From IMG/VR virus record IMGVR_UViG_3300048672_000495, positions 1-55,126 of that record: DNA of 55,126 bases. One strand, given 5' to 3'. The first letter of the stretch is position 1. Every line of letters starts with the position of its first letter. The stretch comes from a virus (Duplodnaviria > Caudoviricetes). The notes under the pieces were generated by a model, which worked only from the letters and a program-made list of their open reading frames with translations, searched no databases and had not been told where the DNA came from. Below are positions 1 through 18,880 of this stretch, one piece after another. Position numbers and translations under genes: made by a program.

Positions 1-969
1 ATAGTTATCTATATCTATAAAACCCTGCGTCATAAATGTAGATACTAGATTATCACTTAGATTAATATCTAATAATGTATTATTAACTATATCTCTACTA
101 CTAAATGTATATAAAGCTCCTACTGTAGTATTGGAAGAATTATAGTGCATCTCTACTACAGAACTATCATCAATAGTATTTTCTACTGCTATGTTGGTAA
201 CTATATTATTTCCACCATCAACATATTTTGTACTACCTATTGTAGCAAATGCAGTTAAATTAGTATTTATAGAGTATTTAGCTGATATACCATCATAATT
301 TGATTGCATTCCATGGGCAGCATATTGTCTTCCAATACTTAATCCATATCCTCTATAAGTATCATCAACAGATGCAAACAATAAAGATGTTTTATATTTA
401 TTTTTACTATTATATCTACTATCTGTTAAACTATATGCATCTGATAATCTTGCTCTAAAATTATAAGTATATTCATCTTTTTTAATAGTTGTAGAGTTAC
501 TAAAACTATTGGCTAATGCTTTTGTATACCTATCACTATATAAATAACTAGATATACTAGAAGAAGTACTAGTACTGTCAATTACTCTTGGTAAACTATT
601 TTTTGACTCTACTTCTGGACGTTCTAATTTTGATTCTAATTCTTTTATTCTTTGTGTAATATTACTATTATACACTTCTTCTGGATAATCATTTAAGTAT
701 AATTGATACTCAATTTTAGCTCTAGCATAATTACCTAGATTTTCTAGAGTAACTGCGATCAATAATTGGGCTCGTTTAGATACGTTTGACTTTGGCATTA
801 ACAAAATCGCGTTCAATAGCTCGATGGCAGAATCAAAATCCTTCTGAACTAGAAAGATTTTTGCTTCTGCCATCAATTCTTGACTTGTTTTGTTGTTTGT
901 TACTTGTGGTGTAGCTGTACTATTTAAACTTAATAATAATAAAACTATGTAGAGATATTTATATTTCAT
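1..969 (-). CDS. Secreted TPR-domain protein with probable outer-membrane beta-barrel C-terminus (partial, runs off left edge)
   Basis: Not in the ORF track because it is truncated. Hand translation from ATG at 969 (RBS TGGAGA): MKYKYLYIVLLLLSLNSTA signal peptide, TPR-like AIELLNAILLMPKSNVSKRAQLLIAVTLENLGNYARAKIEYQLYLNDYP, then alternating beta-strand-like sequence (e.g. YRGYGLSIGRQ, YDGISAKY). Confidence 0.7.
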   Translation of the reverse strand, partial: MKYKYLYIVLLLLSLNSTATPQVTNNKTSQELMAEAKIFLVQKDFDSAIELLNAILLMPKSNVSKRAQLLIAVTLENLGNYARAKIEYQLYLNDYPEEVYNSNITQRIKELESKLERPEVESKNSLPRVIDSTSTSSSISSYLYSDRYTKALANSFSNSTTIKKDEYTYNFRARLSDAYSLTDSRYNSKNKYKTSLLFASVDDTYRGYGLSIGRQYAAHGMQSNYDGISAKYSINTNLTAFATIGSTKYVDGGNNIVTNIAVENTIDDSSVVEMHYNSSNTTVGALYTFSSRDIVNNTLLDINLSDNLVSTFMTQGFIDIDNY

Positions 970-984
970 TTCTCCACAATAAAT

Positions 985-1073
985 TGGTCGGAGTAGGAGG
1001 ATTCGAACCTCCGGGGCTTTTATACCCTCGGTTCCAAGCCGAGAACGCTACCAGGCTACGTGATTACACTCCG
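985..1073 (-). tRNA. trnP: tRNA-Pro(UGG), atypical (extra connector nt, 14-nt variable arm)
   Basis: CGGAGTG/TACTCCG acceptor stem, A-CCA end, CTCGG-CTTGGAA-CCGAG anticodon arm, GGAGG-TTCGAAT-CCTCC T arm. Confidence 0.85.
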
Positions 1074-1074
1074 A

Positions 1075-1266
1075 TTAATCGTAATAATTACCAACAGGAC
1101 CAGAGGTAAGAATAACCTCATCACCTTTTGCTAACTGAATTTTTGCATTATGTCTATAAGCACGTTCGTCGTGCTTCATCATGAATTTACCACCCTCACA
1201 ATGTTTTCCCCACTGGCATTGGCGGCAAGAACAAGATTTAGGAGTTTGCTTAGTATTAGTATCCAT
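1075..1266 (-). CDS. hypothetical protein (Cys-rich N-terminus)
   Basis: 63-aa ORF, GGAGA RBS, coupled to upstream ORF (TAATG overlap). Confidence 0.6.
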   Translation of the reverse strand: MDTNTKQTPKSCSCRQCQWGKHCEGGKFMMKHDERAYRHNAKIQLAKGDEVILTSGPVGNYYD

Positions 1267-1463
1267 TATATCTCCAAAGGAGTTATCTTTTTTATAATGT
1301 GGGACCTATACATTTTAGGTCCTATTCGTTTTAATTGTATCTCAACTTCTGTAATAAACTTTAATCTAAGTCTATTATCTTTGGTTAAGTCAAAACCCAA
1401 ACTTTTATAATACTCTACAGCATCTTCCATAGTTTGGAAAATCACTTCTTTGTTATAAGGCAT
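1266..1463 (-). CDS. hypothetical protein
   Basis: 65-aa ORF with AAGGGGA RBS. Confidence 0.55.
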   Translation of the reverse strand: MPYNKEVIFQTMEDAVEYYKSLGFDLTKDNRLRLKFITEVEIQLKRIGPKMYRSHIIKKITPLEI

Positions 1464-1812
1464 GATTCCCCTTAAAGTTCACTCCTATAAGTAGGATGGT
1501 TACCTACTTACTGGGCTAAACTCTAACTCTAGCAATTAATAGCGGAGGTGGTTACTCGTTGCAACAAGCCACTACGTCACTTTAAGCGTACAAATTCTAA
1601 CGCACTATTAACTGTGTTAGGTAATAGATAACCCTAACGCCCCTTATTGACTAGTCCATAGAGCAAAATATTATGCATCAAGGATCGGGTTTATTACTGA
1701 TATGGGGCAGTACTACCCATACGTTGTAATCACGTGTTTTGCGAGATTCATCACCCGCTTTCTAGTTGTAATTAGACTACACGCTATCCTAGTATTACGT
1801 GCTTGAATTTTT

Positions 1813-1896
1813 TGGTACCCAAGAAGAGACTCGAACTCTTAATCCTCGCGGCGGTGGCTTCTAAGACCACAGTGTATACCATTCCACCACTTGGGC
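1813..1896 (-). tRNA. trnL: tRNA-Leu(UAG)
   Basis: GCCCAAG/CTTGGGT acceptor, anticodon loop CTTAGAA, long variable arm, TTCGAGT T loop, ACCA end. Confidence 0.93.
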
Positions 1897-1903
1897 ATAT
1901 TCT

Positions 1904-2080
1904 TATTAAACAGCAGCCTATTCATCACTTTATTATTGAATAGCATTCATATGTTAAACAACTAATTGCGTTAAGTTGTGTGCACCATCAGTGATATGTT
2001 GTTTTTGTACCGTCGTACTGGTATGCGCCTGCGCCTGTGAGGACTCGAACCCCAACTACCCCACATACTGCTGATTAATA
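1904..2080 (-). ncRNA. stem-closed small RNA candidate containing a T-arm-like hairpin
   Basis: Ends TATTAA-a-CAGCAG / CTGCTG-a-TTAATA are complementary; internal TGGGG-TTCGAGT-CCTCA on minus strand. Confidence 0.45.
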
Positions 2081-2085
2081 AAAAC

Positions 2086-2135
2086 ATCCTGCTTACTAGC
2101 GTACAGGTCGATCTCTTTCCATCGAAGGTGGCTAT
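2086..2135 (-). ncRNA. GUAA two-hairpin motif, copy 1
   Basis: minus: GCCACCT-TCGAT..ATCGA-CCTG tacgcta GTAAG CAGG-AT. Confidence 0.5.
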
Positions 2136-2202
2136 ATCACAGTTTAGCTACTGACTTGTCATCTTTACCCTAGGAAGTGCTACAAGCATGCACTATTATA
2201 AA

Positions 2203-2303
2203 ACTAGCTGTCTACTACTGTTCCATTAAAGGTAAGACTTAGTATAATTCGTCCCAGTTCCACATCTTTTTAACACAAGTCCTGTGGTTGCTTGTGAGCT
2301 AGT
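2203..2303 (-). ncRNA. stem-closed small RNA candidate
   Basis: ACTAGCT/AGCTAGT terminal inverted repeat directly 3' of the tRNA-Ile-like gene. Confidence 0.4.
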
Positions 2304-2307
2304 ATAT

Positions 2308-2408
2308 TGGTACCAGGTACTGGAATCGAACCAGTGTTCGCCGCCTTATCTAGACGGTGCTTAAGAGTTTATAAGGCTCCCTCATAGGCCAACATTAGCA
2401 AACCTGGC
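2308..2408 (-). tRNA. tRNA-Ile(UAU)-like, 101 nt, with extra anticodon-like arm (GAU)
   Basis: GCCAGGT/ACCTGGT acceptor + ACCA; loop CTTATAA; extra hairpin CCGTC-TAGATAA-GGCGG; ACTGG-TTCGATT-CCAGT T arm. Confidence 0.75.
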
Positions 2409-2417
2409 ATAAATCAA

Positions 2418-2535
2418 ATATTGAATAGTACAGGTCGTGGTAGTTCTAATACACCCAGTTGACGCTGTTTTTTGCCATCCGTCAAAATGACCGCACAGTT
2501 ACTCTTTATATTCGTGCGCCTATACTATTCAATAT
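2418..2535 (-). ncRNA. stem-closed small RNA candidate (13-bp perfect terminal stem)
   Basis: ATATTGAATAGTA (2418-2430) / TACTATTCAATAT (2523-2535); immediately downstream of promoter 2558-2586. Confidence 0.6.
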
Positions 2536-2557
2536 GTAATCTTCCCATCGAATACAT

Positions 2558-2586
2558 ATTATACACCAAAGATTGAATAAAATCAA
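2558..2586 (-). promoter_or_regulatory. sigma70-type strong promoter
   Basis: TTGATT-17-TATAAT on minus strand. Confidence 0.85.
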
Positions 2587-2722
2587 GCCTAAAATTCTTG
2601 GCCTTCTGGCCACCCGCAAATCATTATAGTAATGTATTTAGCGATAGTGTTAATACCCATAGCAATAAAATATATTGCTAGAAATGCCAGAAACCAGTGT
2701 TGATGCCAAAAATCCCACATTG

Positions 2723-3040
2723 TCATGTTAGTAGTGTTCCAAATAGTTGTTTATGAGTAATAATCCATTTACCTACTGCTGCACCAAATAAAGCTCCAAC
2801 TGATCCAACTGTGAAGTCTTTAAATGATGGTGTATGTTTGTCTGGGTGCATTGCATCAAATATTTCTTTTGTAGCAGCTGAACCTACTCCGGTAGAGAAA
2901 CCCATTTCAGCGTCATCTGTTAACACAGTTACTATCAATGCTATTACAAATCCAGCGATTAAATGAAGTATTTTATCAATACCCCACCACTTATCAGTAG
3001 ATTGTAATATCTGTAGTAACATGCTCGATAATTTTGGCAT
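2723..3040 (-). CDS. VanZ/YfiM-like membrane protein
   Basis: DKILHLIAG..KEIFD..SFKDF motifs, hydrophobic segments, GGAGAG RBS. Confidence 0.6.
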   Translation of the reverse strand: MPKLSSMLLQILQSTDKWWGIDKILHLIAGFVIALIVTVLTDDAEMGFSTGVGSAATKEIFDAMHPDKHTPSFKDFTVGSVGALFGAAVGKWIITHKQLFGTLLT

Positions 3041-3057
3041 AGGCTCTCCAATAATAA

Positions 3058-3105
3058 GTCCCGGTTACTCGATCCGGGAACACTACTAAAGGCGGTGTTA
3101 GCTAT
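3058..3105 (-). ncRNA. GUAA two-hairpin motif, copy 2
   Basis: minus: AGCT-AACAC..GTGTT-CCCGG atcga GTAA CCGGG-AC. Confidence 0.5.
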
Positions 3106-3445
3106 AGCCCCAAATCATTCTACTAGCCCGTACGTCAGATTTGGAATTGAGTACGTGACGATGCGTTTACCTTCTAACGCCAACCTACCATGCTAAGTTT
3201 ACTAACAGCACATGGATTTTCCCACATCTAATCTGCACATTATACTGATCTCTTTGAACCAGTATTTGTCGCCCCATTGCAGTCTGAAGCATGTCCTTTA
3301 TATGGCGGACATTTCCATTATTGGTTCCGTCGTTCTGGACCTCGGAGGAACCACTACCCGAGGGAGATGTATCTGGTCGGAGCATTCCAGATTTAGCGTC
3401 TTGCGATCCTCCTAACAGTGTCGGCCTTAGCTTTCAGCCCACCGC
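3106..3445 (-). ncRNA. ~340-nt multi-hairpin, pseudoknotted ncRNA candidate
   Basis: No credible ORF; several hairpins and two loop-downstream pairings (3347-3353 with 3322-3328; 3138-3144 with 3110-3116). Confidence 0.5.
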
Positions 3446-3451
3446 TTTACA

Positions 3452-3847
3452 TTACTTTCTACAAAAGAAAATTGAATCTGTGTAATACTTAGTAAGATCA
3501 GTAGCTGGTCCAACATACATATACATGTTATTGGTATCGTATGTTCCAATAGTCTCAGCCTTTACACCACCAGGCAAAAAGTCTGTATACATTGGATGTT
3601 CTTCAAACTTCCATACCTTATCATTGTAGACAAAGGTAGCTTTGATTCCTTGAAAATCCACAACTGCTGTTGCACGAACTTCTTCAAAAATCATGTCAAT
3701 AGTGAAGTTAACTCCACTAAGTACACAATTATATTTACCATTGTGTGCAGCATAATTATATGCTGGAGGGGCTGTAGGACCACTGTCACCACCACCACCA
3801 CAAGCTGTAAGAACTGCCAGTGCTAGAATACTAAGAATCTTTTTCAT
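3452..3847 (-). CDS. lipoprotein
   Basis: MKKILSILALAVLTAC lipobox followed by GGGGDSG linker. Confidence 0.8.
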   Translation of the reverse strand: MKKILSILALAVLTACGGGGDSGPTAPPAYNYAAHNGKYNCVLSGVNFTIDMIFEEVRATAVVDFQGIKATFVYNDKVWKFEEHPMYTDFLPGGVKAETIGTYDTNNMYMYVGPATDLTKYYTDSIFFCRK

Positions 3848-3875
3848 ATTACCTTTGTTAGTTTATTTTAGTGAA

Positions 3876-3946
3876 ATGGGCCAGCGGTCCGGTCTCCCGC
3901 ATTGAAGTGTATATACACAGCTACTCACGATTGTATTATGACCCAT
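3876..3946 (-). ncRNA. stem-closed small RNA candidate
   Basis: ATGGGCCA / TGACCCAT terminal complementarity. Confidence 0.35.
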
Positions 3947-4060
3947 AGTAGAATACACATCTTGCTTATGTGGCTTTAGGGCACGAAAGCAATCGCGACC
4001 CATAACTTGATTGAAGTATGGAAAACCATACTTCCTACCACAGATTATGTACTCTACTAT
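3945..4060 (-). ncRNA. stem-closed small RNA candidate
   Basis: ATAGTAGAATACA / TGTACTCTACTAT terminal stem (one G-U on minus strand); internal GAAGTATGG-AAAA-CCATACTTC hairpin. Confidence 0.55.
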
Positions 4061-4062
4061 AA

Positions 4063-4116
4063 GTCCCGCTTACTCTTTGCAGGGTCGGAACACTAGCCCT
4101 CTCCGACAGCTTGGGC
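4063..4116 (-). ncRNA. GUAA two-hairpin motif, copy 3
   Basis: minus: GCCCAAGCT-GTCGGA..TCCGAC-CCTGC aaaga GTAA GCGGG-AC. Confidence 0.5.
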
Positions 4117-4180
4117 ACACATCACTTAGTTCGATCCGTAGCTTAGATGTGCAAATGAATCACCTACGGCTTCTGAATTA

Positions 4181-4240
4181 ATCCCGGTTACCAAACTTCC
4201 GGGTTGCTCTAGATTTAAGTATACTTAAATCGGCAAGGCT
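4181..4240 (-). ncRNA. GUAA two-hairpin motif, copy 4
   Basis: minus: GAGCC-TTGC..GATTTAAGTATACTTAAATC..GCAA-CCCGG aagtttg GTAA CCGGG-AT. Confidence 0.5.
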
Positions 4241-4288
4241 CACGTTTCAATGAGAATCCTAGATCACATCCATCTAGTAGGGTTCTTT

Positions 4289-4573
4289 TTAAAGCTGCTT
4301 CTTCTTAATGCGTTCTACGATACCATCAATAAAAGCTTCGTCCTTTATAAAGGAAACTGCTTCAAGTGCGGAAAGTTTTGCCTTACCTGAAACCTCATAC
4401 TTATAGTCACGAAGTTCTTCACTAATAGCCTTTTCAACAGCAATTCTATGGTACTTTATAAACCATTCTGATTTTTTTACTTCTTCTACGATTTGAGCAG
4501 CAATTAATCTTGCCTCTATACGCGGTGGAGACTCAGGAATTTCAAGATACTTGCGAAGAAACTTTTTTAGCAT
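4289..4573 (-). CDS. hypothetical protein
   Basis: 94-aa ORF in gene orientation of region. Confidence 0.6.
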   Translation of the reverse strand: MLKKFLRKYLEIPESPPRIEARLIAAQIVEEVKKSEWFIKYHRIAVEKAISEELRDYKYEVSGKAKLSALEAVSFIKDEAFIDGIVERIKKKQL

Positions 4574-4593
4574 TTTATTATTAGTTAGTTGTT

Positions 4594-4679
4594 TGGTGGT
4601 CCATCAAGGTAACGATCCTCCTGTCCCGATGGGAAACGGGGTTACAGCCCGCGCACTCTCCTTAAGTGTCTAATGAACC
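4594..4679 (-). tRNA. trnY: tRNA-Tyr(GUA)
   Basis: GGTTCAT/ATGGACC acceptor, loop CTGTAAC, long variable arm, ACCA; non-canonical T loop ATCGTTA. Confidence 0.85.
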
Positions 4680-4689
4680 AATATTAAAA

Positions 4690-5414
4690 TATAGTAGCTA
4701 ATCGGCCATGCCCTGCTCCGGTTTACCGGCTACAGCTTCCCTCTTTCAAGTTTCTCCGATCGGTCCCCCAATCCCTAACTTATGCTTTGGGCTCTAAGGG
4801 TTTCTCTTACTACTATAAGTATTTTCTGAAGGGCCCGGACGGTTATTTGGGGCTCGGTCCCATACATATGCACGTTAGTCTTATATACTTTTAAATATAA
4901 GGTGTGTTCTGGAAAGGAGATAGTGGCAATTGTTTACGCGGTTGTCCCGTATATCAGAAAATATATTAAAGTATAACTAATACGACAGCATTGCCGCAAT
5001 GACTACCTTTTCAGTATGCCAGGATATCACAATTTAACATTCCTGCCGAGCTTGCGGGTCGGGGTCTGTGCGTGATTGCATAGGGCACTGTTAGTTATAC
5101 TTTAATATAAAAATGGGTCTACGAGTCCAATTGTATAGCTAATTCACAATTACGTAGTCTAGTCACGCCTCCACTTATCGTCAATCGGTATCGGAGCTTA
5201 TCCCGAATCCCAATCTATTGTAGCTTCATCGAACGCCGCTGACATACCGATCAGCTTCACCCATTAAGATTAAATAGTTCCTGGCCAGGCTAGATAATTT
5301 TCTCACTTGCTTCCGCCTACTAGTGACAAACAGGGGCAGAAGTATACGACTTCCGCGGCCTATGTCTCGTTCCCATTGTCTTGTATCCAATTATCTTACT
5401 ATTTAATCTTAATG
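4690..5414 (-). ncRNA. tandem array of five abutting stem-closed small RNAs (4690-4817, 4820-4963, 4962-5109, 5112-5265, 5262-5414)
   Basis: Each ~130-155-nt unit is bounded by its own inverted repeat (8, 10, 19, 7 and 17 bp); no ORFs; lies between promoter 5488-5516 and tRNA-Tyr. Confidence 0.65.
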
Positions 5415-5467
5415 ATCCAGCTTACTTGATACTGGGCTAATAATTTGTGGCTATTAGCAGTGCGCCA
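5415..5467 (-). ncRNA. GUAA two-hairpin motif, copy 5
   Basis: minus: GGCGCACT-GCTAATA..TATTAGC-CCAG tatcaa GTAAG CTGG-AT. Confidence 0.5.
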
Positions 5468-5487
5468 TTTCTCACTTCAGAATATAT

Positions 5488-5516
5488 ATTATAATCCAAA
5501 ATACTTCGCAATTCAA
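5488..5516 (-). promoter_or_regulatory. sigma70-type promoter driving RNA array
   Basis: TTGAAT-17-TATAAT. Confidence 0.85.
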
Positions 5517-5523
5517 GCTTAAA

Positions 5524-5928
5524 TTAATACATGTGAACAGCAACTATGTGTACCGTTACCGCAATAATCATCAGTATTACGAATGGTTTATGATAAATAT
5601 GCCAATGTACAAACATTATAACATACTTATCATGTAGATGGCCCATAGTATGTATTACTTTATTATAAAGATACCTACCATATACACCACTTATAGCCAC
5701 TATCATTAATGATATGAACGCTATTGTAGCATTCAGACTACCAAAATATAATCTAGTATGAGCAATAACTATAAAAGGAGTTATTGCTCCTATAAACATA
5801 TGAAGATGGAACCATAAACGAATGTTACCACCAATCCAGGGAAAATTCTTTCTAACGTGGTACAATAGTAGTATTAGTATTAGAAATCCCGAAAATATCC
5901 CTGTTTGGTATGAGTAACTATTGTTCAT
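5524..5928 (-). CDS. His-rich 4-TM membrane protein, cytochrome b/ferric-reductase-like (multiheme-cytochrome-cluster inner membrane protein type)
   Basis: WFHLHMFIG..AH, SGVYGRYLY, WHIYHKPF..VHIVAVHMY: paired His in TM helices typical of heme-b ligation. Confidence 0.7.
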   Translation of the reverse strand: MNNSYSYQTGIFSGFLILILLLYHVRKNFPWIGGNIRLWFHLHMFIGAITPFIVIAHTRLYFGSLNATIAFISLMIVAISGVYGRYLYNKVIHTMGHLHDKYVIMFVHWHIYHKPFVILMIIAVTVHIVAVHMY

Positions 5929-6109
5929 CCTTATACTTTTTTATTGCTTCCGCATCCAACGAACAATACACCCTAAATTTATCTTTTCCTGCTTCGTCAT
6001 AAAAAGCTTCAGCCATTTTTTCAAGTGACTCGAACTTTTCAGATGGAAGTGAGTAATATCTACTTAGGAACGCAGATACTAGAAATTCTTTGCTATAACC
6101 TGCTGCCAT
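5918..6109 (-). CDS. hypothetical protein
   Basis: ATG at 6109 with AAGGGA RBS downstream of promoter 6131-6159. Confidence 0.6.
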   Translation of the reverse strand: MAAGYSKEFLVSAFLSRYYSLPSEKFESLEKMAEAFYDEAGKDKFRVYCSLDAEAIKKYKDEQ

Positions 6110-6130
6110 AAAAATCCCTTTCAAGCCTTA

Positions 6131-6159
6131 ATTATACAGGCTTTGATCAGGAAATTCAA
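6131..6159 (-). promoter_or_regulatory. sigma70-type promoter
   Basis: TTGAAT-17-TATAAT. Confidence 0.8.
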
Positions 6160-6167
6160 GATAAAAT

Positions 6168-6497
6168 TTACTTAGAAGCAGCAGATGCTGGTGGTTTAGC
6201 AGTTACAGCAGCCTTCTTCAATGAAGCACACTGTGAACGTTCAAACTTATCCTTCTTATATGATTCTTCTTTTGTTTGCCACTGCATGTTTTCAATGGCA
6301 TCTTTACCACCTGCACATAATGGAATTATGTGGTCTACCACAAATCCTGGACAGGTAGTTTTACTATGTTCTACTTTAGCTGGGCACGGATGAGTCTTTA
6401 CAAACTCTTTACGCACTTTAGCTGATCTAGTAGTAGCATCTACTGAGCTAATTAAACTTATTGCTAGTAGACATGCTACTAATAGACTCTTTTTCAT
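6168..6497 (-). CDS. HNH-family nuclease with N-terminal signal peptide
   Basis: MKKSLLVACLLAISLISSVDA; VVDHIIPLCAGGKDAIENMQWQ..KD motif. Confidence 0.75.
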   Translation of the reverse strand: MKKSLLVACLLAISLISSVDATTRSAKVRKEFVKTHPCPAKVEHSKTTCPGFVVDHIIPLCAGGKDAIENMQWQTKEESYKKDKFERSQCASLKKAAVTAKPPASAASK

Positions 6498-6604
6498 TTA
6501 ATTCCTATCACTTTGTTCGTCCACAGGAGGACGCTTACCGCGACGCGCATTACGTCTTTGTTTTTCTTGTTCTTTACGCTCTTTGCGTTCGTCCGGGTCT
6601 TGTT

Positions 6605-7438
6605 TCATAGCACTAGTGCCTCAATCTCATTAGTTCCGACATTGTCGGTTTTCCAAAACTTACCAGTCAATGGCTCTGTAACTGTAAGTCCAGCCCAACT
6701 GTGCCGATCTACAGCAAATGCCATAGTATCAATATTGGTTTGGCCGATTACTGTAGTTGGCATACGTACTGGTGTATGTCCACTAAAGATGTGTGACAGT
6801 TTATCATTAAAGAAATCTGTTACTGCATGTTTAGACAGAATCGCTTTGTGTAGAATACCATGTTGCTTACTAACTTCTTTTGCAAAAAGTTCCGCAAACA
6901 TTTCCCTACCCCACAAAAGCCCGTGCCCATCTCTACAAACACGACTAGCAATATCTTTAAAGTTAGTAACTAGACTTTCATCAGTAATAACTTCATCTTC
7001 TTTGCCAAGAATTTCAGCATGAATAACGTGAAATTTCTTTCCATTACTCATATTTACTGTAATTAGCCAAGGGAGTTTCTCTACTATTGGTAGAAGAAGG
7101 TCAACAACATCGTGTTTTTCTTCATCGTTCACAAATTCAAACCAGTTTCCACCGTTTCTGAACCACCAGGCACCAGTAGGTCCACCAGTTAGAAAGTCTT
7201 CCATTAGTTGTTCGTGGTTGCTTTTTACACAGTGAAACCAGGGTTCAAGCAGTAGACTCAAACACCTAAAACTGTGTGGGCCTCTATCAACTAGATCACC
7301 CACCGAAAACATACGATCTTTTTCAAAATCAAATCCTACGTGTCCCATAAACCCAACTAGCAGTTCATGTGATCCGTGTAGGTCCCCACACACAAAGTCT
7401 CTACCTTGAGTGTTTACATCAAACGTTTTTATCTTCAT
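6605..7438 (-). CDS. Ser/Thr protein phosphatase (lambda NinI/PphA-like metallophosphoesterase)
   Basis: GDLHG, GDLVDRG, SNHE, IHA, GHTP, IDT motifs. Confidence 0.9.
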   Translation of the reverse strand: MKIKTFDVNTQGRDFVCGDLHGSHELLVGFMGHVGFDFEKDRMFSVGDLVDRGPHSFRCLSLLLEPWFHCVKSNHEQLMEDFLTGGPTGAWWFRNGGNWFEFVNDEEKHDVVDLLLPIVEKLPWLITVNMSNGKKFHVIHAEILGKEDEVITDESLVTNFKDIASRVCRDGHGLLWGREMFAELFAKEVSKQHGILHKAILSKHAVTDFFNDKLSHIFSGHTPVRMPTTVIGQTNIDTMAFAVDRHSWAGLTVTEPLTGKFWKTDNVGTNEIEALVL

Positions 7439-7532
7439 TATTTGTTTTAGTTAGCCAACAGATTAGCATACATCTTAGTACAAGTACTAAGAGTATCAGT
7501 ATTATTACTGTTATATATGCATAATCCATAAT

Positions 7533-7607
7533 TGGTACCACCAGTAGGAGTCGAACCTACGTCATTGGTTTAGGAAACCACAATACTTTCCGTTGTACTA
7601 TGGTGAT
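7533..7607 (-). tRNA. trnR: tRNA-Arg(CCU)
   Basis: cloverleaf, anticodon loop TTCCTAA, ACCA end. Confidence 0.9.
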
Positions 7608-7611
7608 ATAT

Positions 7612-7686
7612 TGGTCCTGCGTGAAAGAATCGAACTCTCATCTGAGGGGTAGAAACCGACTGTACTTTCCATTGTACTAACGCAAG
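7612..7686 (-). tRNA. trnR: tRNA-Arg(UCU)
   Basis: cloverleaf, loop TTTCTAC, ACCA end; two mismatches in anticodon stem. Confidence 0.82.
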
Positions 7687-7693
7687 AATTTAT

Positions 7694-8002
7694 TTAGTAA
7701 GGCATGCCAATTATAGGATAGAAAGCAGCGCGCTGAGTAGGATTCATAAAGAATTCCCATTCCTTATGTCCTTCGTCAAACAGTTCTATCGAATTAATAG
7801 ATACGGCTGACTCATCTTCGTATTCTTCATCTTCACATACTGAATCACCATATTCTTGAGAGAATTGCTCACGTTGGGTTTCTTCCATATAGTCTGCGGC
7901 TAGAATCTCAGCCTCTGTTTCGTTCTCAGCCCAAACCACTACATTCATCTGACCACCACACCAATGTGCGTTCTCGTAGTCAATTAGGTAACGTTGTTTC
8001 AT
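7694..8002 (-). CDS. hypothetical acidic protein
   Basis: 102-aa ORF, ATGA-coupled to upstream small ORF. Confidence 0.65.
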   Translation of the reverse strand: MKQRYLIDYENAHWCGGQMNVVVWAENETEAEILAADYMEETQREQFSQEYGDSVCEDEEYEDESAVSINSIELFDEGHKEWEFFMNPTQRAAFYPIIGMPY

Positions 8003-8133
8003 TTGTATTCGTTTGTTAGTATATCGAGTGGAATAACCTTTAATGCTTCTAGATACATCTCTTTATTAAAAAATACTTCGTTCTCCAAATCCTCTAGAAG
8101 TTGTATAATGTAATTAAATGTTGCTGCGTTCAT
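7999..8133 (-). CDS. small hypothetical protein (MNAATFNY..., 44 aa)
   Basis: hand-translated; ATGA overlaps at both ends. Confidence 0.5.
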   Translation of the reverse strand: MNAATFNYIIQLLEDLENEVFFNKEMYLEALKVIPLDILTNEYK

Positions 8134-8306
8134 ATTTCGTTTTTAAATAGTTTAATTAGCATATCTTTTCTATAATCTACTGGCATAGATGCATAAAGTG
8201 CTGAGCATCTAATAGCCTGTTCTTTGCTAAGCTCACCTTTTATGTTCATGAGCTCAAGAAGTTCTTCAGTAGCTTCAAGTGTATAATTAAATGTTGCGGG
8301 ATTCAT
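8130..8306 (-). CDS. small hypothetical protein (MNPATFNY..., 58 aa)
   Basis: hand-translated; GGAG RBS; N-terminus shared with 7999-8133. Confidence 0.55.
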   Translation of the reverse strand: MNPATFNYTLEATEELLELMNIKGELSKEQAIRCSALYASMPVDYRKDMLIKLFKNEI

Positions 8307-8468
8307 GTGTTACTCCAAATCTGTCCAATAATAAAACTACTTGCTAAAAATACCCAATATTCAAGGCTAAATATAGCGACTGGATGTAGTATTTGAAGTG
8401 TTGAAGTAAGTATTGCTGTTGAAAAGATTATTTTTGGTCCTTTTAGTGTTTCTGGTTTCATTTTATTT

Positions 8469-8543
8469 TGGTAGCTCCTGAAGGAATCGAACCCTCATCG
8501 CCAAGTTCGTAGCCTGGTGCATTCTCCGTTATACGAAGGAGCC
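8469..8543 (-). tRNA. trnR: tRNA-Arg(ACG)
   Basis: GGCTCCT/AGGAGCT acceptor, loop CTACGAA, ACCA end. Confidence 0.92.
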
Positions 8544-8678
8544 ATTGTTTAGTTAAAATGTTTTCCTGCCCAAAAATGTCCAATAATTGGCATATTAAAC
8601 TTCATATTGAACCAAATATCTCTATTTTTATAATCGAACTGGAATTTTTTAAAGTAATTTCTCTTTTGTTTCTTCATT

Positions 8679-8879
8679 TTAAGGTCCGTAAGCATCTAGA
8701 CAATACTTACAAATATCAAGTCCGTCTAAATCTTTATGCATTGACTTTTGCCATAGACCACAACAATTACATTGTTTGAGGTTAATTTCCAAGTCAGAAG
8801 TAAATTCTATCACACATTCACTACAACCTTCAAGTACAGTTTTTCTAGTGTTAAGTAGGGCTGACTCTAACGGTTTCAA
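8679..8879 (-). CDS. small Cys-rich (Zn-finger-like) protein
   Basis: CxxC x3; overlaps stop of upstream gene. Confidence 0.55.
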   Translation of the reverse strand: MKPLESALLNTRKTVLEGCSECVIEFTSDLEINLKQCNCCGLWQKSMHKDLDGLDICKYCLDAYGP

Positions 8880-9574
8880 CCTTTTTCCTCACGTTGCTCT
8901 AATTCTAATACTGCTAACAGATTCCAAATCATTTGAGCAAGATGCTTAGTATAAATACCATTTGGGCCATCATCATATACTTTACCAGATCCTAGCTGAA
9001 GCATATGCCTACCAAATGCATCCATATATCTATCTTTACCATCTGGTACAGTTAACCAACCATGCGCGGTATATTTCTTAGCTCCAGTAGTACCAACCTT
9101 AGCAACTTCTTCTAAAGCATTACTAAAATCACCTAGTACCAACCATGGACGCAACTTACCAGCATCAGCCTTCGATCCTGCTTCATTCAATGATTTGCCA
9201 TTAGGATCAGTCTCAATATATGTAATATTTTTAGGATCGTACGGAGTATGTGTTATAGTTGCACTACTAGCTTTAGGGTTATCAAGATGTATAACTCTTA
9301 CATAATTAGATCCTATAACTCCACCACAACTCATACTTGCAAGTTCTTCTGCAAATAATGGCTCAGCTACTTTTACTGGCTCAGGAAATGGCCATACAGC
9401 AGATTTACTCGCTTCTATTTCCTCATCAGGATAAGGCCAGGCCCAGTTATTTTCTGGTTTGCTAGTTGGGAAGGGCCATGGAAGTGAGGACTCATCCATA
9501 ATCGTAGGACGCACTACTTCTTTCTTACTAAATGCTTTTTTCCACAGTTGTTTTGCTTGAAAATCTTTTTTCAT
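8876..9574 (-). CDS. dATP/dGTP diphosphohydrolase (DUF5664-like) with N-terminal W-P-F-P repeats
   Basis: KADAGKLRPWLV..ALEEVAKVGTTGAKKY..W..RYMDAFGRH..HLAQMIWNLL. Confidence 0.75.
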   Translation of the reverse strand: MKKDFQAKQLWKKAFSKKEVVRPTIMDESSLPWPFPTSKPENNWAWPYPDEEIEASKSAVWPFPEPVKVAEPLFAEELASMSCGGVIGSNYVRVIHLDNPKASSATITHTPYDPKNITYIETDPNGKSLNEAGSKADAGKLRPWLVLGDFSNALEEVAKVGTTGAKKYTAHGWLTVPDGKDRYMDAFGRHMLQLGSGKVYDDGPNGIYTKHLAQMIWNLLAVLELEQREEKG

Positions 9575-9869
9575 GTCTTTCTTTTTATTTTAGAGAATCA
9601 GTATAGCTATCAAAATAATAACTATAATGATTCCCCCTAGATTGGGGGAATCCAGTAGGCATTGCACCCACCTTTACAGACCATAATTATCAGAATATAC
9701 TGAATTATGATCTACGACTAATGCCACCAGAATGGACTTCTATAGTCTACATGCTATAACGTTCAGGGATTCTAGTCCCCAATCATTTCCAATAGCATTA
9801 GAATTATTGGGTTGGTTCTTGGGTTTTTCTCCCGGTACGCGGTCAATATCCATAACACCGCATTTGAAT

Positions 9870-14790: not shown

Positions 14791-15082
14791 CTTATTCAAA
14801 ACGAAACCAGAAGAAAAAAAAGAAATTGTAACAGGTCCCCCTACAAGTATTACACCTGCACCAAAACTACCTGAGCCCCCAATGTGGACAGTCGGGCCAT
14901 CAAATGATGGTACACAAATAGTGTTGTGTATACAGCATGATTGTACAATCATTAGGATGTATATGAATGCAGAGGCTACGGAATCGTTGATTCAATCGCT
15001 TGATTCCCTTCTTCAGCCGATGTTGACCGTATTGCAAAAAAATTCGGTTTTAGAGCCATTTCCAACGATCGAAACAGCATGA
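14783..15082 (+). CDS. hypothetical protein
   Basis: 99-aa ORF overlapping neighbours. Confidence 0.6.
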   Translation: MFNLFKTKPEEKKEIVTGPPTSITPAPKLPEPPMWTVGPSNDGTQIVLCIQHDCTIIRMYMNAEATESLIQSLDSLLQPMLTVLQKNSVLEPFPTIETA

Positions 15083-15378
15083 AGTACGATAATGAAACTA
15101 CCAAGAAATTAGTTGCTGATTACGCCTCAGGCGTGTCAGTTGCGCTCCTTGCGGAGCAATTAGACGTCCCTGAGCGCTCTATAATTGCCAAACTGGCCTC
15201 ACTTGGTGTATACAAGAAGAAGGAATACCTTAATAAACAGGGTGAACCGCCCATAAAAAAGGAAGAATACGTCGAGCGTATTGCAAATTTGCTAAAAGTC
15301 AATGTAGAACTACTAGAATCTCTTGAAAAGGTCAATAAAAACGTCTTAAAGATGCTAGAAGACGCATTAACTTCCTAA
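15079..15378 (+). CDS. T5 A2/D3-like DNA-binding protein
   Basis: RSIIAKLASLGVY..LESLEK; paralog of 16999-17310 and 18110-18502. Confidence 0.7.
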   Translation: MKYDNETTKKLVADYASGVSVALLAEQLDVPERSIIAKLASLGVYKKKEYLNKQGEPPIKKEEYVERIANLLKVNVELLESLEKVNKNVLKMLEDALTS

Positions 15379-15383
15379 AACTC

Positions 15384-15420
15384 AAAAAGCCTCGTAATAT
15401 CACTATTACGAGGCTTTTTT
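15384..15420 (+). terminator. intrinsic (bidirectional) terminator
   Basis: AAAAAGCCTCGTAATA-TCAC-TATTACGAGGCTTTTT. Confidence 0.85.
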
Positions 15421-15621
15421 GCGTCGGAAGTCAACTGTGACTATTTTTTCATTCAAAACAGCCCAACCACAATAATTATGACCCAACCGCGCTAATTGCT
15501 TGCCGGAGGCAAGAGGCTGCGCCGCTTGGGGCGATTCGCTAAATTCTCACTTGACAAATCTGCTCAGCACTGGTAAAATTTGGCGCCGAAACAGACTTGT
15601 TACATTTTGTTACAATTGAGC

Positions 15622-15660
15622 AAAAACTAAACCCCCAGAATCCGAAGATTAAGGGGGTTA
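15622..15660 (-). terminator. intrinsic terminator ending the large ncRNA unit
   Basis: minus: AACCCCC..AATC TTCG GATT..GGGGGTT TAGTTTTT. Confidence 0.65.
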
Positions 15661-16508
15661 GAAGTATGACTAGTACTTTTTATATAGATATCTTGAGTCG
15701 TCGAAACTCTCAATCTCCACTGTTTTTTAAGAGCTGGGACTCTGCCAGGTTTATGCTCGGTAGCCGAGCACCAGCCGTATCGCGTCGTACTGGGTTTCTT
15801 TGTGTGGTAAGAGCTACTTACCTACACGTATGTGTTCCTAAGTTGGTACCATAAAGGGTTCGAGACCGCGTACTAGGTAACACAATATAACAACGTCTCC
15901 CGACGTTGGCTGGATCATGTTGGGTTGCCTCTGCATCCACGATCTGATCCGCAACAAGCTCGATAGCACTCCAAAGCTATCGCATTTAAGTCCAATTCGG
16001 GCAGGATTCCATCCTGGGGTGGACACTAAATAAACCGACTCTCACGGTATTCTAGATCTAAGTTTCGCTTGATGGCCCTTGCATGCTAGTCTGCGGCACT
16101 CGCTACACCAGTCTATATAAGGAGCTGCTCGACTGGTATCTGCGCTGCTCGCTAATCTTATAATTCGTCTTGGATTTGATTAAGATCCAATGTAACGTCT
16201 ACACTTATATTAACCTCCGGGCCGCATGTAGACGCCTCCCAGATTCTGCCTTTCGTTGTTGTGAGACTATTTTGCGATCTTCCCACTACTACTCGCAGCC
16301 GCTTATATGCCGGGCCAGATCAGACATCCTGGTTTAAGTCCTTATGTCAGAGACTACCAACTTAAGTTTTGGCAAACTAACTATACGGATGACACCAGAA
16401 TAGTCATAGGAGAGTAATCTCTTTAGGTAACAGGCACGCAAATGCTTTCGACCTTATTAGACACCTACGGTCAGGAGACTCAGAGAAATCAGACTCATCT
16501 GACTAATC
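15660..16508 (-). ncRNA. large (~850 nt) structured non-coding RNA candidate
   Basis: No credible ORF; many hairpins (TTGGAT..ATCCAA, ACCAGTC..GACTGGT, CAGGAT-GGA-ATCCTG, CGATAGC..GCTATCG, TGCTCGG-CTA-CCGAGCA, GGTAAG..CTTACC) and AGTA/GAA motifs. Confidence 0.55.
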
Positions 16509-16559
16509 TACGACTGACCGTTTCGACCGAATTGCACGGTCTCATCAGGATGCTTTAAT
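16502..16559 (-). ncRNA. type I hammerhead ribozyme
   Basis: minus: ATC-CTGATGA-GACCG tgcaatt CGGTC-GAAA-CGG tcag TCG-TA^GAT; full core, stems II and III, GUA cleavage triplet (cut 16509/16508); stem I short or bulged. Confidence 0.75.
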
Positions 16560-16634
16560 TGGTACCCCTTATGGGTTTCGATCCCATCTGCACAACGTGA
16601 AAGGCTGTTGACCTCGCCAGAAGTCCAAAGGGGC
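16560..16634 (-). tRNA. trnE: tRNA-Glu(UUC)
   Basis: GCCCCTT/AAGGGGT acceptor, loop CTTTCAC, T loop ATCGAAA, ACCA end. Confidence 0.88.
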
Positions 16635-16734
16635 ATAAATAGGGGATGGCTGTCGACCTGGTATAATTTTCACGACACTTAGTTCATCTATTCCCAACCA
16701 TGTATGGGAACCAAAGAGCACCATCTGGAAAATT

Positions 16735-16806
16735 GTAGTATAAGCTCGCCGTCTACTCACGCTGCCTCTGCTTGACGTCCCTTTACAAGGTAACGTGTTA
16801 TACTAC
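16735..16806 (-). ncRNA. stem-closed small RNA candidate
   Basis: GTAGTATAA / TTATACTAC 9-bp terminal stem, first element after promoter. Confidence 0.4.
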
Positions 16807-16844
16807 GCGCCGGTGATTCCGGTCTTTCTCTCACTTCAACATCT

Positions 16845-16967
16845 ATTATACATGAAAAGGGGATGCGAATCAAGACAATATTTATTGATCTGAATCGCTG
16901 CTTTTCTTCTTGTCGCTAATTCCCCAGTCCATATACATATTATACATGAAAGGAGCCCCAGGATCAA
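16845..16967 (-). promoter_or_regulatory. two tandem sigma70-type promoters
   Basis: TTGATT-17-TATAAT (~16845-16873) and TTGATC-17-TATAAT (~16939-16967), sharing TTTCATGTATAAT. Confidence 0.8.
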
Positions 16968-16998
16968 GTGAGAATTTTTGATCCTAGGCTCCGCACCG

Positions 16999-17310
16999 TC
17001 AGGCTTCGAGAGCCTTCAGGACGAACATCAGAGCCGGACCCGTGGCCTTTTCCAGCGACTCCACCTGTTCTTCGGACGCGCCGACCGCCTTGGCGATCTT
17101 GGCAACCATTTCCGCCTTCAGCATCTCACGCTTGCCGGCTTCCTTGGCCTTGGGGACGTACACACCTTCCTTCGACAGCTTGGCGATCACCGAGCGTGCC
17201 GACTTGCCCAGCTTGACAGCCAGAGCTTCCACAGCCACACCAGCTTGATAGCCGGCAACCAGTTCCGCAACCTGTTCGGCGGAATAATTCGCAACCTTTT
17301 CAGCAGACAT
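16999..17310 (-). CDS. T5 A2-like DNA-binding protein
   Basis: NYS..LGKSARSVIAKLSKEGVY..ESLEKA; GGAGAG RBS; promoter TTGAGG-17-TATAAT upstream. Confidence 0.75.
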   Translation of the reverse strand: MSAEKVANYSAEQVAELVAGYQAGVAVEALAVKLGKSARSVIAKLSKEGVYVPKAKEAGKREMLKAEMVAKIAKAVGASEEQVESLEKATGPALMFVLKALEA

Positions 17311-17559
17311 TTTCTCTCTCCTATGTTAATGGGTTAATTTATTCGGATTGTTCTGCGATCCGATAAAGAATTATAAATCGTTTGGATAAAAGCCTCAAGT
17401 GAATATTTTTTAATGTATACTCGTGGCTCAACATTTTTTGGATACAAACGCGCACGTTAAAACTTATGCGGGCCGGCTGCCTACGCAGCGTTGGGTTATG
17501 CTTGATCTCCCAATCCATTTCATTATTATACGCGGGAAATTTCAAAAATTCAAGAAAAT

Positions 17560-18502: not shown

Positions 18503-18625
18503 TTTTTGCCCTTTCGTGGCAGTTGTGAAGTGAAGTAGAGACTATACCGGAATCCGAAAACCTTGTCAACTGTGGGGTTATTTCCCGTTGTTGCGTTGCG
18601 TTTGGTTTCTTGATCCGATAAGTAG

Positions 18626-18842: not shown

Positions 18843-18880
18843 AGTATATAAAATAATATGGGGCATATTGCCCCATATTA

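What the first reader, a model, noticed from the sequence alone, without database searches (positions are those of the whole stretch)
4690..5516. Tandem array of abutting, mutually unrelated small RNAs each sealed by a long AU-rich terminal duplex
Seen: a strong promoter, a GUAA motif, five units packed end to end (5262-5414 with a 17-bp stem, 5112-5265, 4962-5109 with a 19-bp stem, 4820-4963, 4690-4817), then tRNA-Tyr. More units occur at 3876-3946, 3945-4060, 2418-2535 and 16735-16806. The interiors are GC-richer, structured and different from one another, like cargo in a common cassette. Knowledge: T5 makes a few uncharacterised stable RNAs in its tRNA region. Inference: a modular RNA-effector system (decoys, antitoxin mimics or anti-defence RNAs) released by RNase III-like processing. 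This is a leading candidate for an undescribed system.
Basis: partly seen in the sequence, partly recalled or inferred. Interest (0 to 1): 0.9.

Follow-up and report, generated by a model that had tools for sequence, protein, structure and literature searches.

The report
Phage array of end-paired small RNAs
A T5-like freshwater phage carries, between a promoter and an odd tyrosine tRNA, five back-to-back non-coding units whose two ends pair with each other; they look like new versions of the "stable RNAs of unknown function" long known in the tRNA regions of phages T5 and T4.

Summary
The array is real. On the minus strand, 5414-4690 splits into five abutting units, each closed by pairing of its own ends, followed by a non-canonical tRNA-Tyr. 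No shuffle reproduced this tiling (0 of 300). Only two closing stems are long (17 and 19 bp); the other three are 7-10 bp. The units are unrelated to each other, to any Rfam family, and to 45 related phage records. They are not tRNAs and lack Y-RNA motifs.

Relatives at about 64% capsid identity are full of similar end-paired units in their tRNA regions. One such family includes window 1897-2087 and shows strong covariation. T5 itself has annotated abutting stable RNAs of unknown function next to tRNAs.

Best reading: processed, exonuclease-protected small RNAs of the T5/T4 stable-RNA kind, accessory and exchanged as modules. Their function is unknown, and expression and RNA ends are untested. 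This is a new variant of a known but unexplained kind, not an undescribed system.

The parts
5488..5516 (-). sigma-70-like promoter TTGAAT-17-TATAAT, directly after the stop of ORF 5524-5928
   Evidence: (10 of 12 matches), though such sites are not enriched in the region (37 found vs 35.8 expected). Similar sites precede unit 2418-2535 (2586-2558). In relative G002 a similar site precedes the Tyr-like tRNA.
   Evidence: MFE -14.2, z -0.78, not significant.
5262..5414 (-). unit 1, 153 nt: 17-bp perfect AU-rich closing duplex, continued after a 1-nt bulge by an 8-bp helix
   Evidence: full z -3.6; interior z -0.08. No Rfam match. No homologue found.
5112..5265 (-). unit 2, 154 nt: 7-8 bp closing helix AAUGGGU/ACCCAUU, whose first 4 nt overlap the 3' arm of unit 1
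   Evidence: z -0.89, weak. The sense strand is 12.4 kcal/mol more stable than the antisense.
4962..5109 (-). unit 3, 148 nt: 19-bp perfect AU-rich closing duplex
   Evidence: z -3.2 to -3.35. The antisense folds slightly better.
4820..4963 (-). unit 4, 144 nt: 10-bp closing helix
   Evidence: z about -2. The antisense is 11 kcal/mol more stable; this strand is C-rich.
4690..4817 (-). unit 5, 128 nt: 9-bp closing helix; the only unit whose interior is more stable than shuffles
   Evidence: interior z -2.26. An identical copy in another metagenome contig ends at 4817. A single-sequence covariance model found nothing in 32 related records.
4594..4680 (-). non-canonical type-II tRNA-Tyr(GUA) with encoded CCA and the T-loop AUCGUUA
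   Evidence: relaxed ARAGORN; cloverleaf fold. One search shows the same T-loop and anticodon in relative G002, with compensatory changes in the acceptor and anticodon stems. Missed.
3940..4065 (-). further end-paired unit, 126 nt: 20-bp closing helix with 4 G-U pairs on this strand
   Evidence: z -8.8; interior z -5.1; sense 18 kcal/mol more stable.
3876..3946 (-). weak candidate unit, 71 nt, 8-bp GC-rich closing helix
   Evidence: z -0.58.
2418..2535 (-). further end-paired unit, 118 nt, 17-bp closing helix, directly behind a promoter-like site (2586-2558)
   Evidence: z -5.1 to -5.3.
1897..2087 (-). 191-nt end-paired RNA abutting the 5' end of tRNA-Leu(UAG); member of a family conserved in relatives
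   Evidence: 7 sequences, 90.1% of cells paired, 24 of 40 pairs with changes on both sides, 0 of 500 shuffles. The window row is the most divergent in the alignment.

Best explanation
The locus is a non-coding transcription unit in the tRNA region of a T5-like phage. It reads: promoter, about 65-nt leader, five independently folding RNA domains, then a non-canonical tRNA-Tyr.

Each domain is closed by pairing of its own 5' and 3' ends, and neighbours are 0-3 nt apart or overlap by 2-4 nt. I infer that host endonucleases cut the precursor at the domain borders. RNase P would cut at the tRNA 5' end, RNase E-type cuts would fall in the AU-rich junctions, and RNase III could cut the two duplexes of 17 bp or more. 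Exonucleases would then trim back to the closing helices. The result would be five stable RNAs of 128-154 nt, as with RNAI/RNAIII/RNA1 of T5 and species 1 and 2 of T4.

The units are accessory and are exchanged as modules between related phages. Their function after release is unknown. My best guess, at about 0.3 conditional on the rest, is that they act in trans as protein-binding decoys or scaffolds, in the way Y RNAs do.

Shown: the anatomy, the tiling, the absence of known families, the same grammar in relatives and in T5, and covariation in one related family. Inferred: transcription, processing sites, stability and function.
For: **Anatomy**
- Searches give the anatomy. Tiling beyond chance: 0 of 300 shuffles.
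- No ORF of 55 aa or more lies in 4690-5414 on either strand.
- Interior GC is 0.44-0.52, like the window's tRNAs and unlike the flanking ORFs.

**Clade-wide pattern**
- Perfect long-range stems of 14 bp or more (span 55-260) lie almost only in tRNA/RNA regions: window 3 of 3, G001 6 of 7, G002 5 of 7, G005 6 of 6.
- They abut tRNAs and each other.
- The strand carrying the tRNAs folds better in 28 of 37 units (Wilcoxon p = 4e-5).
- A 186-191-nt family including window 1897-2087 has 24 of 40 pairs with compensatory changes; 0 of 500 shuffles reach this, and slid controls pair 35-46% versus 90%.

**Known analogues**
- The T5 record annotates eight stable RNAs of unknown function in its tRNA region. 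Three are abutting and precede tRNA-His; a 719-nt one sits between a promoter and tRNA-Arg.
- T5 RNAIII closes with a stem that extends to 20 bp in the precursor.
- T4 rnaC and rnaD abut tRNA-Arg.

**Accessory nature**
- The array is absent between the promoter and the Tyr-like tRNA in G002.
- Similarity breaks fall at unit borders in other metagenomes.
- tRNA regions of G001 and G005 are collinear but mosaic, with units inside the unaligned gaps.
Against: - There is no RNA evidence at all: no RNA run holds the stretch.
- None of the five units has a homologue, so none can be tested by covariation.
- Interiors of units 1-4 are no more stable than shuffles. However, the same holds for the covariation-backed family and for T5 RNAI and RNAIII.
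- Units 3 and 4 fold better on the antisense strand.
- Three of the five closing helices (7-10 bp) are of chance size when taken singly.
- The 17- and 19-bp stems are perfect Watson-Crick, so they give no strand information and would also fit a DNA-level inverted repeat.
- No sequence homology to any T5 RNA was found. The link to T5 rests on layout, not descent.
- The promoter call is a consensus match in a region where such matches are not enriched.
Confidence: 0.5

Rival explanations
1. The five units are domains of one large structured RNA of about 0.8 kb, like T5 RNAX, rather than five separate RNAs. The closing helices would then be domain-closing helices, as in ribosomal RNA or other large ornate RNAs.
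For: T5 has a 719-nt stable RNA annotated between a promoter and a tRNA, the same layout and size as promoter-5414..4690-tRNA here. Neighbouring arms overlap by 2-4 nt, so not all closing helices can form fully at once. From recall: large phage-associated RNAs often sit beside tRNAs.
Against: There is no Rfam hit to any large RNA, even at E up to 10. T5 RNAX does not fold into comparably sealed sub-units: outer helices are 3-4 bp, and no perfect stem of 11 bp or more lies in it. Single units occur with different neighbours in other metagenomes, which fits independent modules better. There is no sequence similarity to T5.
Confidence: 0.15
2. The units are structured spacers or stable by-products. 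Only the closing stems would matter: insulating the folding of neighbouring RNAs, guiding processing of the tRNA-containing precursor, or simply surviving exonucleases. The interiors would have no function of their own.
For: Interiors of 4 of 5 units are no more structured than shuffles. The units are orphans with fast turnover. G002 expresses the same odd tRNA-Tyr straight from a promoter without any array. In relatives and in T5 the stems often include the CCA end of the upstream RNA and the first bases of the downstream tRNA.
Against: Interior GC is raised to tRNA level. In the one family that can be tested, interior helices covary as well as the closing stem (helices 2-5). Five spacers in a row in front of a single tRNA is more than processing needs.
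Confidence: 0.2
3. The inverted repeats act at the DNA level. The units would be small cassettes bounded by terminal inverted repeats (MITE-like elements, or recombination or homing targets), not RNA genes.
For: The 17- and 19-bp arms are perfect and contain no G-U pairs. Units show presence/absence differences and changed neighbours between strains. HNH endonuclease genes lie nearby in the window (6168-6497), in G002 and in T5.
Against: The units are single-copy with unrelated arms and interiors; there are no repeated family members and no direct-repeat target duplications. Across the clade the tRNA strand folds better (28 of 37), with G-U pairs in stems (for example 4 in the 20-bp stem of 3940-4065). 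T5 counterparts are annotated as stable RNAs in the T5 record.
Confidence: 0.07
4. The units are Y RNAs, that is, partners of a phage Ro60/Rsr protein.
For: A long stem formed by the 5' and 3' ends is the Y-RNA hallmark. Several Y RNAs can be made from one precursor (Chen et al. 2014, PMC4201824, section 8 passage). 3 of 5 records searched (3 of the 4 relatives; not the window) encode a TROVE/vWA Ro60 homologue inside the tRNA region, with a sub-threshold YrlA match just upstream (27-32 bits).
Against: The window has no TROVE gene in its 55 kb, though it is only a 52% fragment. The five units lack T and D arms. They lack the published GNCGAAN0-1G motif and the CAGUUACUUC motif shared by the four RNAs flanking rsr in G002 and G005. 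G001 lacks rsr yet has many end-paired units.
Confidence: 0.05

Closest known systems
Stable RNAs of the phage T5 tRNA region (RNAI, RNAIII, RNA1, RNA2H, RNAIV, RNA2, RNA3, RNAX), as annotated in NC_005859
   Same: They lie on the tRNA strand, behind phage promoters, abutting each other and tRNAs: RNA1-RNAI-RNAIII-tRNA-His, and promoter-RNAX(719 nt)-tRNA-Arg. RNAIII, RNA2H and RNAIV are closed by pairing of their ends. Function is unknown. The host phage is related: capsid-protease fusion at 30-39% identity to Demerecviridae.
   Different: There is no sequence similarity. In the T5 region only RNAIII has a perfect long-range stem of 14 bp or more, whereas this clade has many of 14-23 bp. Several T5 RNAs are tRNA-like with T arms or CCA ends; the five units are not.
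Phage T4 species 1 and species 2 RNAs (rnaC, rnaD)
   Same: Two abutting small stable RNAs (139 and 119 nt) directly after tRNA-Arg in the tRNA cluster. Their function has long been unknown (recalled).
   Different: rnaC carries a canonical T arm and neither has a long closing duplex. Different phage family.
Bacterial and phage Y RNAs (YrlA/YrlB) with Ro60/Rsr (Chen et al. 2014, PMC4201824; Rfam RF02553)
   Same: Small RNAs whose ends pair in a long stem with a variable upper part. Several can come from one precursor. A Ro60 gene and YrlA-like RNAs sit in the tRNA region of relatives.
   Different: The five units lack T and D arms and both candidate Ro60-binding motifs. No Ro60 gene is present in the window fragment.
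RNase III processing stems of rRNA operons and phage T7 early transcripts (recalled, not tested)
   Same: Long duplexes formed by sequences flanking an RNA that is to be released from a polycistronic precursor.
   Different: Only units 1 and 3 reach a length that RNase III is known to need. No cleavage data exist.
Correia-type MITEs (recalled)
   Same: 100-155-bp elements with terminal inverted repeats, which fold into RNase III-cut hairpins when transcribed.
   Different: Those are multi-copy families with conserved ends. Here every unit is unique.

Membership tests
Any Rfam 15 family | covariance-model score at or above the gathering cut-off | tested here: not met
   Nothing reached threshold in 4690-5414. 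The only hit at E up to 10 is a 12.3-bit chance match to a human lncRNA model.
tRNA | cloverleaf with T arm and anticodon arm | tested here: not met
   ARAGORN at default, with introns allowed, and at 80-85% thresholds gives no credible call in the five units. No Rfam tRNA hit. No stem-flanked TTCRANN loop in 4690-5414.
Y RNA / YrlA | 5' and 3' ends pair in a long stem | tested here: met
Y RNA / YrlA | T-like and D-like arms (tRNA-like domain) | tested here: not met
   By contrast, the YrlA-like RNAs of relatives carry GGUGGUUCGAGUCCACC and GCUCAGUUGGUAGAGC.
Y RNA / YrlA | Ro60-binding motif near the 5' end (GNCGAAN0-1G; in this clade, possibly CAGUUACUUC) | tested here: not met
   Neither motif occurs in 4574-5523.
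Y RNA / YrlA | encoded within a few kb of a Ro60/TROVE gene on the same strand | tested here: inconclusive
   No TROVE match in the 55-kb window. But the record is 52% complete and the tRNA region is cut at the window's left end. 3 of 4 near-complete relatives have the gene.
T5-type stable RNAs of the tRNA region | location in the phage tRNA cluster, on the tRNA strand, abutting tRNAs or each other | tested here: met
T5-type stable RNAs of the tRNA region | sequence or structure homology to a T5 RNA | tested here: not met
   (no blastn match in 50,697 phage records). (nhmmer profile of the related 186-nt family against the T5 tRNA region: best E 0.96).
T5-type stable RNAs of the tRNA region | accumulates as a discrete stable RNA in infected cells | not testable with these tools
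   No RNA run holds the stretch.
RNase III substrate | about two turns of uninterrupted or nearly uninterrupted duplex (recalled criterion) | tested here: inconclusive
   Unit 1 has 17+8 bp and unit 3 has 19 bp extending to about 25, so both reach it. Units 2, 4 and 5 (7-10 bp) do not. No cleavage assay was possible.
MITE-like element | several copies sharing terminal inverted repeats, with target-site duplications | tested here: not met
   (no shared arms, no flanking direct repeats). (only self-matches in the record).

The most novel reading that the evidence does not exclude
T5-like phages keep a fast-evolving, recombination-shuffled library of trans-acting effector RNAs. Each would be packaged in a standard double-stranded clamp that directs its excision from a tRNA-type precursor and protects it from exonucleases. 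The variable interiors would be decoys or scaffolds for host RNA-binding defence or RNA-decay proteins. This would give a function to the T5 and T4 stable RNAs that have been unexplained for decades.
Probability: 0.15. Interest if true: 0.85.

Novelty: new variant of a known kind. Interest (0 to 1): 0.45.

Why it matters
Small stable RNAs in the tRNA clusters of T4 and T5 have been known for decades without a function.

This window and its relatives show that such RNAs are not an oddity of two laboratory phages. They are an abundant, diverse and mosaic component of a whole clade of environmental T5-like phages. At least one conserved family is under clear structural selection. In some genomes a Ro60/Y-RNA module and a two-piece tmRNA sit in the same region.

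That gives comparative material: core versus accessory units, conserved closing stems, and unit exchange at fixed sites. It also gives a simple cloned-locus experiment for attacking the old question.

For this particular array the value is limited, because its five units are orphans and nothing shows that they are expressed.

Tried and rejected
**tRNAs with introns or degenerate tRNAs.** Relaxed ARAGORN gave only implausible intron models and many false positives across coding DNA. Rejected.

**Permuted tmRNA.** It is present in relatives at 91-118 bits, but no hit appeared in the window at E up to 10. ARAGORN tmRNA calls at the 80% threshold are scattered and implausible.

**Homologues of the five units**
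- blastn against 50,697 phage records: none.
- BLAST in 5 and then 40 related records: only the tRNA-Tyr part matched.
- nhmmer --max against 838 kb of relatives: none; best E 0.23.
- Exact 30-mer of unit 1 in IMG/VR: 0.
- Single-sequence covariance model of unit 5 in 32 records: 0. The tool notes that an empty answer without a positive control shows little.

**Flanking proteins as anchors.** The 134-aa ORF and the phosphatase found no relatives in IMG/VR. Five short metagenome loci did not reach the array.

**RNA evidence.** No RNA holder is listed for the stretch.

**Variants from laid contigs.** They were too few and one-sided to test pairing.

**RtcB in relatives.** 0 of 5.

**The window's first ORF (1-969) as Ro60.** No; it is a TPR protein with a signal-like N-terminus.

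**T5 RNA2H as homologue of the 186-nt family.** No similarity.

**Literature.** Searches for work on T5 stable RNAs or phage tRNA-cluster RNAs listed nothing on their function. Only the listings were seen. Older subscription-journal papers are not in the library, and supplements of Chen et al. 2014 (lists of phage YrlA RNAs) could not be seen.

Full report
**What the window is.** The window is a whole IMG/VR virus record of 55,126 bases, estimated 52% complete. Its capsid-protease fusion protein (30982-32919) matches Demerecviridae (T5-like phages) at 30-39% identity. It also has 306 relatives in IMG/VR, most at 61-70% identity. Bases 1-9,600 form a T5-style tRNA region read on the minus strand. 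It holds tRNAs (Pro, Leu, three Arg), small ORFs, a NinI-like phosphatase and an HNH-like ORF. The region is cut by the left end of the record.

**The observation.** Read on the minus strand, the stretch behind the stop of ORF 5524-5928 contains the following:
- a TTGAAT-17-TATAAT site at 5516-5488 and a leader of about 65 nt;
- unit 1 (5414-5262), closed by a perfect 17-bp repeat;
- unit 2 (5265-5112), closed by 7-8 bp;
- unit 3 (5109-4962), closed by a perfect 19-bp repeat;
- unit 4 (4963-4820), closed by 10 bp;
- unit 5 (4817-4690), closed by 9 bp;
- nine bases later, a tRNA-like molecule ending in CCA.

A fold with base-pair span limited to 230 nt returns units 3, 4 and 5 and the tRNA as separate exterior domains at exactly these borders. 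A chain of five abutting closed units never appeared in 300 dinucleotide shuffles. The three-unit chain with stems of 9 bp or more also appeared in 0 of 300. At 8 bp or more, 17 of 300 shuffles matched the observed chain. The tiling is therefore real, although the 7-10 bp helices are of chance size when taken one at a time.

Arms are AU-rich in four units (GC 0.11-0.28). Interiors have GC of 0.44-0.52, the level of the window's tRNAs, against 0.32-0.36 in the flanking ORFs. The units share nothing with each other beyond 10-17-nt matches. No ORF of 55 aa or more lies in the array.

- Only two of the five duplexes are long.
- With the arms removed, the interiors of units 1-4 are no more stable than shuffles (z -0.08 to +0.94). 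Unit 5 is the exception (-2.26). I checked what this test is worth. The covariation-supported family described below, and T5 RNAI and RNAIII, also give interior z-scores near zero. The test is therefore uninformative rather than negative.

**What it is not.**
- No Rfam family matches at gathering thresholds, at E up to 10 over 9 kb, or over the 950-nt stretch alone.
- The units are not tRNAs.
- They have no detectable homologue: not in 50,697 phage records, not in 45 related IMG/VR records by BLAST, not in 838 kb of relatives by nhmmer without filters. The exact 30-mer search and a covariance model of unit 5 also found nothing.

**Relatives.** I fetched three near-complete relatives (G001, G002, G005; about 64% capsid identity). 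Each has 23-25 tRNAs in a 12-22 kb region. In all of them, perfect inverted repeats of 14-23 bp spanning 59-195 nt are concentrated there: 6 of 7 such stems in G001, 5 of 7 in G002 and 6 of 6 in G005 lie in tRNA/RNA regions, as do 3 of 3 in the window. Folded, they are end-paired units of 59-195 nt that abut tRNAs and each other. Many begin with the ACCA of the preceding tRNA. None reaches an Rfam threshold.

The tRNA strand folds better than its complement in 28 of 37 units (Wilcoxon p = 4e-5). Strand G-richness contributes to this, and among the window's five units only 3 of 5 follow the trend.

Some units are conserved between genomes. A 186-191-nt RNA sits next to tRNA-Leu(UAG) in G001, G002, G003, G004, G005 and G014, and in the window at 1897-2087. 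In seven sequences, 90.1% of cells are paired and 24 of 40 pairs show changes on both sides. This includes four interior helices. No shuffle in 500 reaches the observed values, and sliding the partners drops pairing to 35-46%. So at least this class member is under selection for RNA structure. The window's own row is the most divergent in that alignment, so its membership is the least certain.

**Turnover.** The tRNA regions of G001 and G005 are collinear blocks of 73-99% identity, interrupted by gaps that contain different units. After tRNA-Lys, for example, both have a unit that starts UACCAUAU and ends AUAUGGUA, but with unrelated interiors.

In G002 the same odd tRNA-Tyr sits directly behind a TTGACT-17-TATAAT site, with no array.

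Low-depth contigs (depth 2-3, about 151 nt) from other metagenomes were laid on the window.
- One matches 4688-4817 with no difference and then runs on unlike.
- One matches 5152-5264 with 2 differences and then runs on unlike.
- One matches 5261-5355 with no difference, after 53 unlike letters.
- One matches 5185-5264 at about 85% identity, unlike on both sides.
- Three other contigs do bridge the unit 1/2 or unit 2/3 borders, as in the window.
- One contig joins tRNA-Leu to position 2320, skipping 421 nt that include unit 1897-2087.

This is weak evidence, but it is consistent with units being exchanged as modules.

**Known counterparts.** The T5 reference record annotates eight 'stable RNAs with unknown functions' in its tRNA region.
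- RNA1 (144 nt), RNAI (107 nt) and RNAIII (106 nt) lie head to tail, followed by tRNA-His.
- RNA2H (172 nt) lies before tRNA-Ala and tRNA-Leu(UAG).
- RNAIV, RNA2 and RNA3 are also annotated.
- RNAX (719 nt) lies between promoter P16-17 and tRNA-Arg.

Folding shows that RNAIII, RNA2H and RNAIV are closed by pairing of their ends. In the precursor, the RNAIII stem extends to 20 bp, taking in the GCCA end of RNAI and the first bases of tRNA-His. T4 has rnaC and rnaD abutting tRNA-Arg.

The layout of the window's array (promoter, about 725 nt of non-coding units, tRNA) is that of RNAX. The abutting closed units resemble RNA1-RNAI-RNAIII. There is no sequence similarity, and in T5 only RNAIII has a long perfect stem. 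The link is therefore one of kind, not demonstrated descent.

**The Y-RNA lead.** 3 of the 5 records searched (the window plus four relatives) encode a TROVE protein inside the tRNA region. The window and G001 do not. The G005 protein has 458 aa, with TROVE and vWA domains. Just upstream in each lies a full-length but sub-threshold YrlA match (27-32 bits against a cut-off of 69) with textbook T and D arms. In G002 and G005, four RNAs flanking the gene share UAGUG...CAGUUACUUC.

According to Chen et al. 2014 (PMC4201824; abstract, sections 5 and 6 and some passages read), Y RNAs pair their ends in a long stem, YrlA carries T and D arms and a GNCGAAN0-1G motif, and two Y RNAs can come from one precursor.

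The five units have the stem but none of the other features. The window fragment has no TROVE gene. G001 lacks the gene yet has many units. They work like Y RNAs in outline, but membership is not supported.

**Mechanism proposed.** I commit to the following at about 0.5. The locus is transcribed from the 5516-5488 site as one precursor. RNase P cleavage at the tRNA, cuts in the AU-rich junctions, possibly RNase III cuts in the two long duplexes, and exonucleolytic trimming then release five RNAs whose paired ends make them stable. All of these steps are inferred. What the RNAs do is open. High turnover, module exchange and the Y-RNA analogy make protein-binding decoys or scaffolds the best guess.

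Rivals are:
- one large multi-domain RNA (0.15);
- functionless structured spacers or by-products (0.2);
- DNA-level inverted-repeat cassettes (0.07);
- true Y RNAs (0.05).

**Verdict.** This is a new variant of a known, functionally unexplained kind. Interest is moderate: the clade-wide pattern is useful for an old open question, but this array itself is an orphan with no expression data.

Noticed in passing
window 4594-4680 (-); L084 about 1490-1600 (-) in G002: A non-canonical tRNA-Tyr(GUA) with a long variable arm, encoded CCA and T-loop AUCGUUA in place of UUCRANY. It is conserved in G002 with compensatory changes in the acceptor and anticodon stems. Default ARAGORN and Rfam miss it, and G002 has no other tRNA-Tyr call. 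The listing abstract says a retron defence degrades host tRNA-Tyr; a resistant phage tRNA-Tyr is a possibility.
   Followed up: partly
window 2312-2408 (-): A tRNA-like molecule with a 7-bp acceptor stem, canonical T arm (ACUGG-UUCGAUU-CCAGU), CCA end and long variable arm, but an aberrant anticodon region (a 7-bp hairpin with a 3-nt loop). Weak tRNA-Sec hit (19 bits). Contigs at about 87% identity occur in two other metagenomes.
   Followed up: partly
L116 (G005 96923-100207), L117 (G002), L118 (G003): T5-like environmental phages encode a Ro60/Rsr homologue (TROVE + vWA, 445-467 aa) inside the tRNA region. A divergent YrlA lies upstream. In G002 and G005, four flanking RNAs share UAGUG...CAGUUACUUC, a possible clade-specific Ro60-binding motif.
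   Followed up: partly
L106 6051-6368, L112 7018-7374, L103 14741-15071; L106 8777-8972: Relatives carry a permuted (two-piece) tmRNA in the tRNA region (91-118 bits), flanked by end-paired units. G002 also has a group I intron match (60.7 bits). Neither was found in the window.
   Followed up: no
window 15000-24000: A segment of 42-51% GC against about 35% elsewhere. It contains mostly minus-strand ORFs of 90-230 aa, tRNA-Glu (16560-16634), a sub-threshold hammerhead type I match next to it (16506-16554, 22.8 bits vs cut-off 34), and a 16-bp perfect stem enclosing 88 nt at 21739-21826. In G005, two units with 18-bp stems sit beside the matching tRNA-Glu.
   Followed up: no
window 1464-1812 and 2088-2306 (-): More non-coding sequence between units and tRNAs. 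It includes an 82-nt unit with a 12-bp closing helix (1533-1614) and a weaker one at about 2193-2306.
   Followed up: partly
G001, G005 and G002 tRNA regions: Many closing stems in relatives share a start (A)CCAUAU... and an end ...AUAUGG(U), so the stem includes the CCA end of the upstream tRNA. The T5 RNAIII stem does the same with RNAI and tRNA-His. This suggests a shared processing logic.
   Followed up: partly
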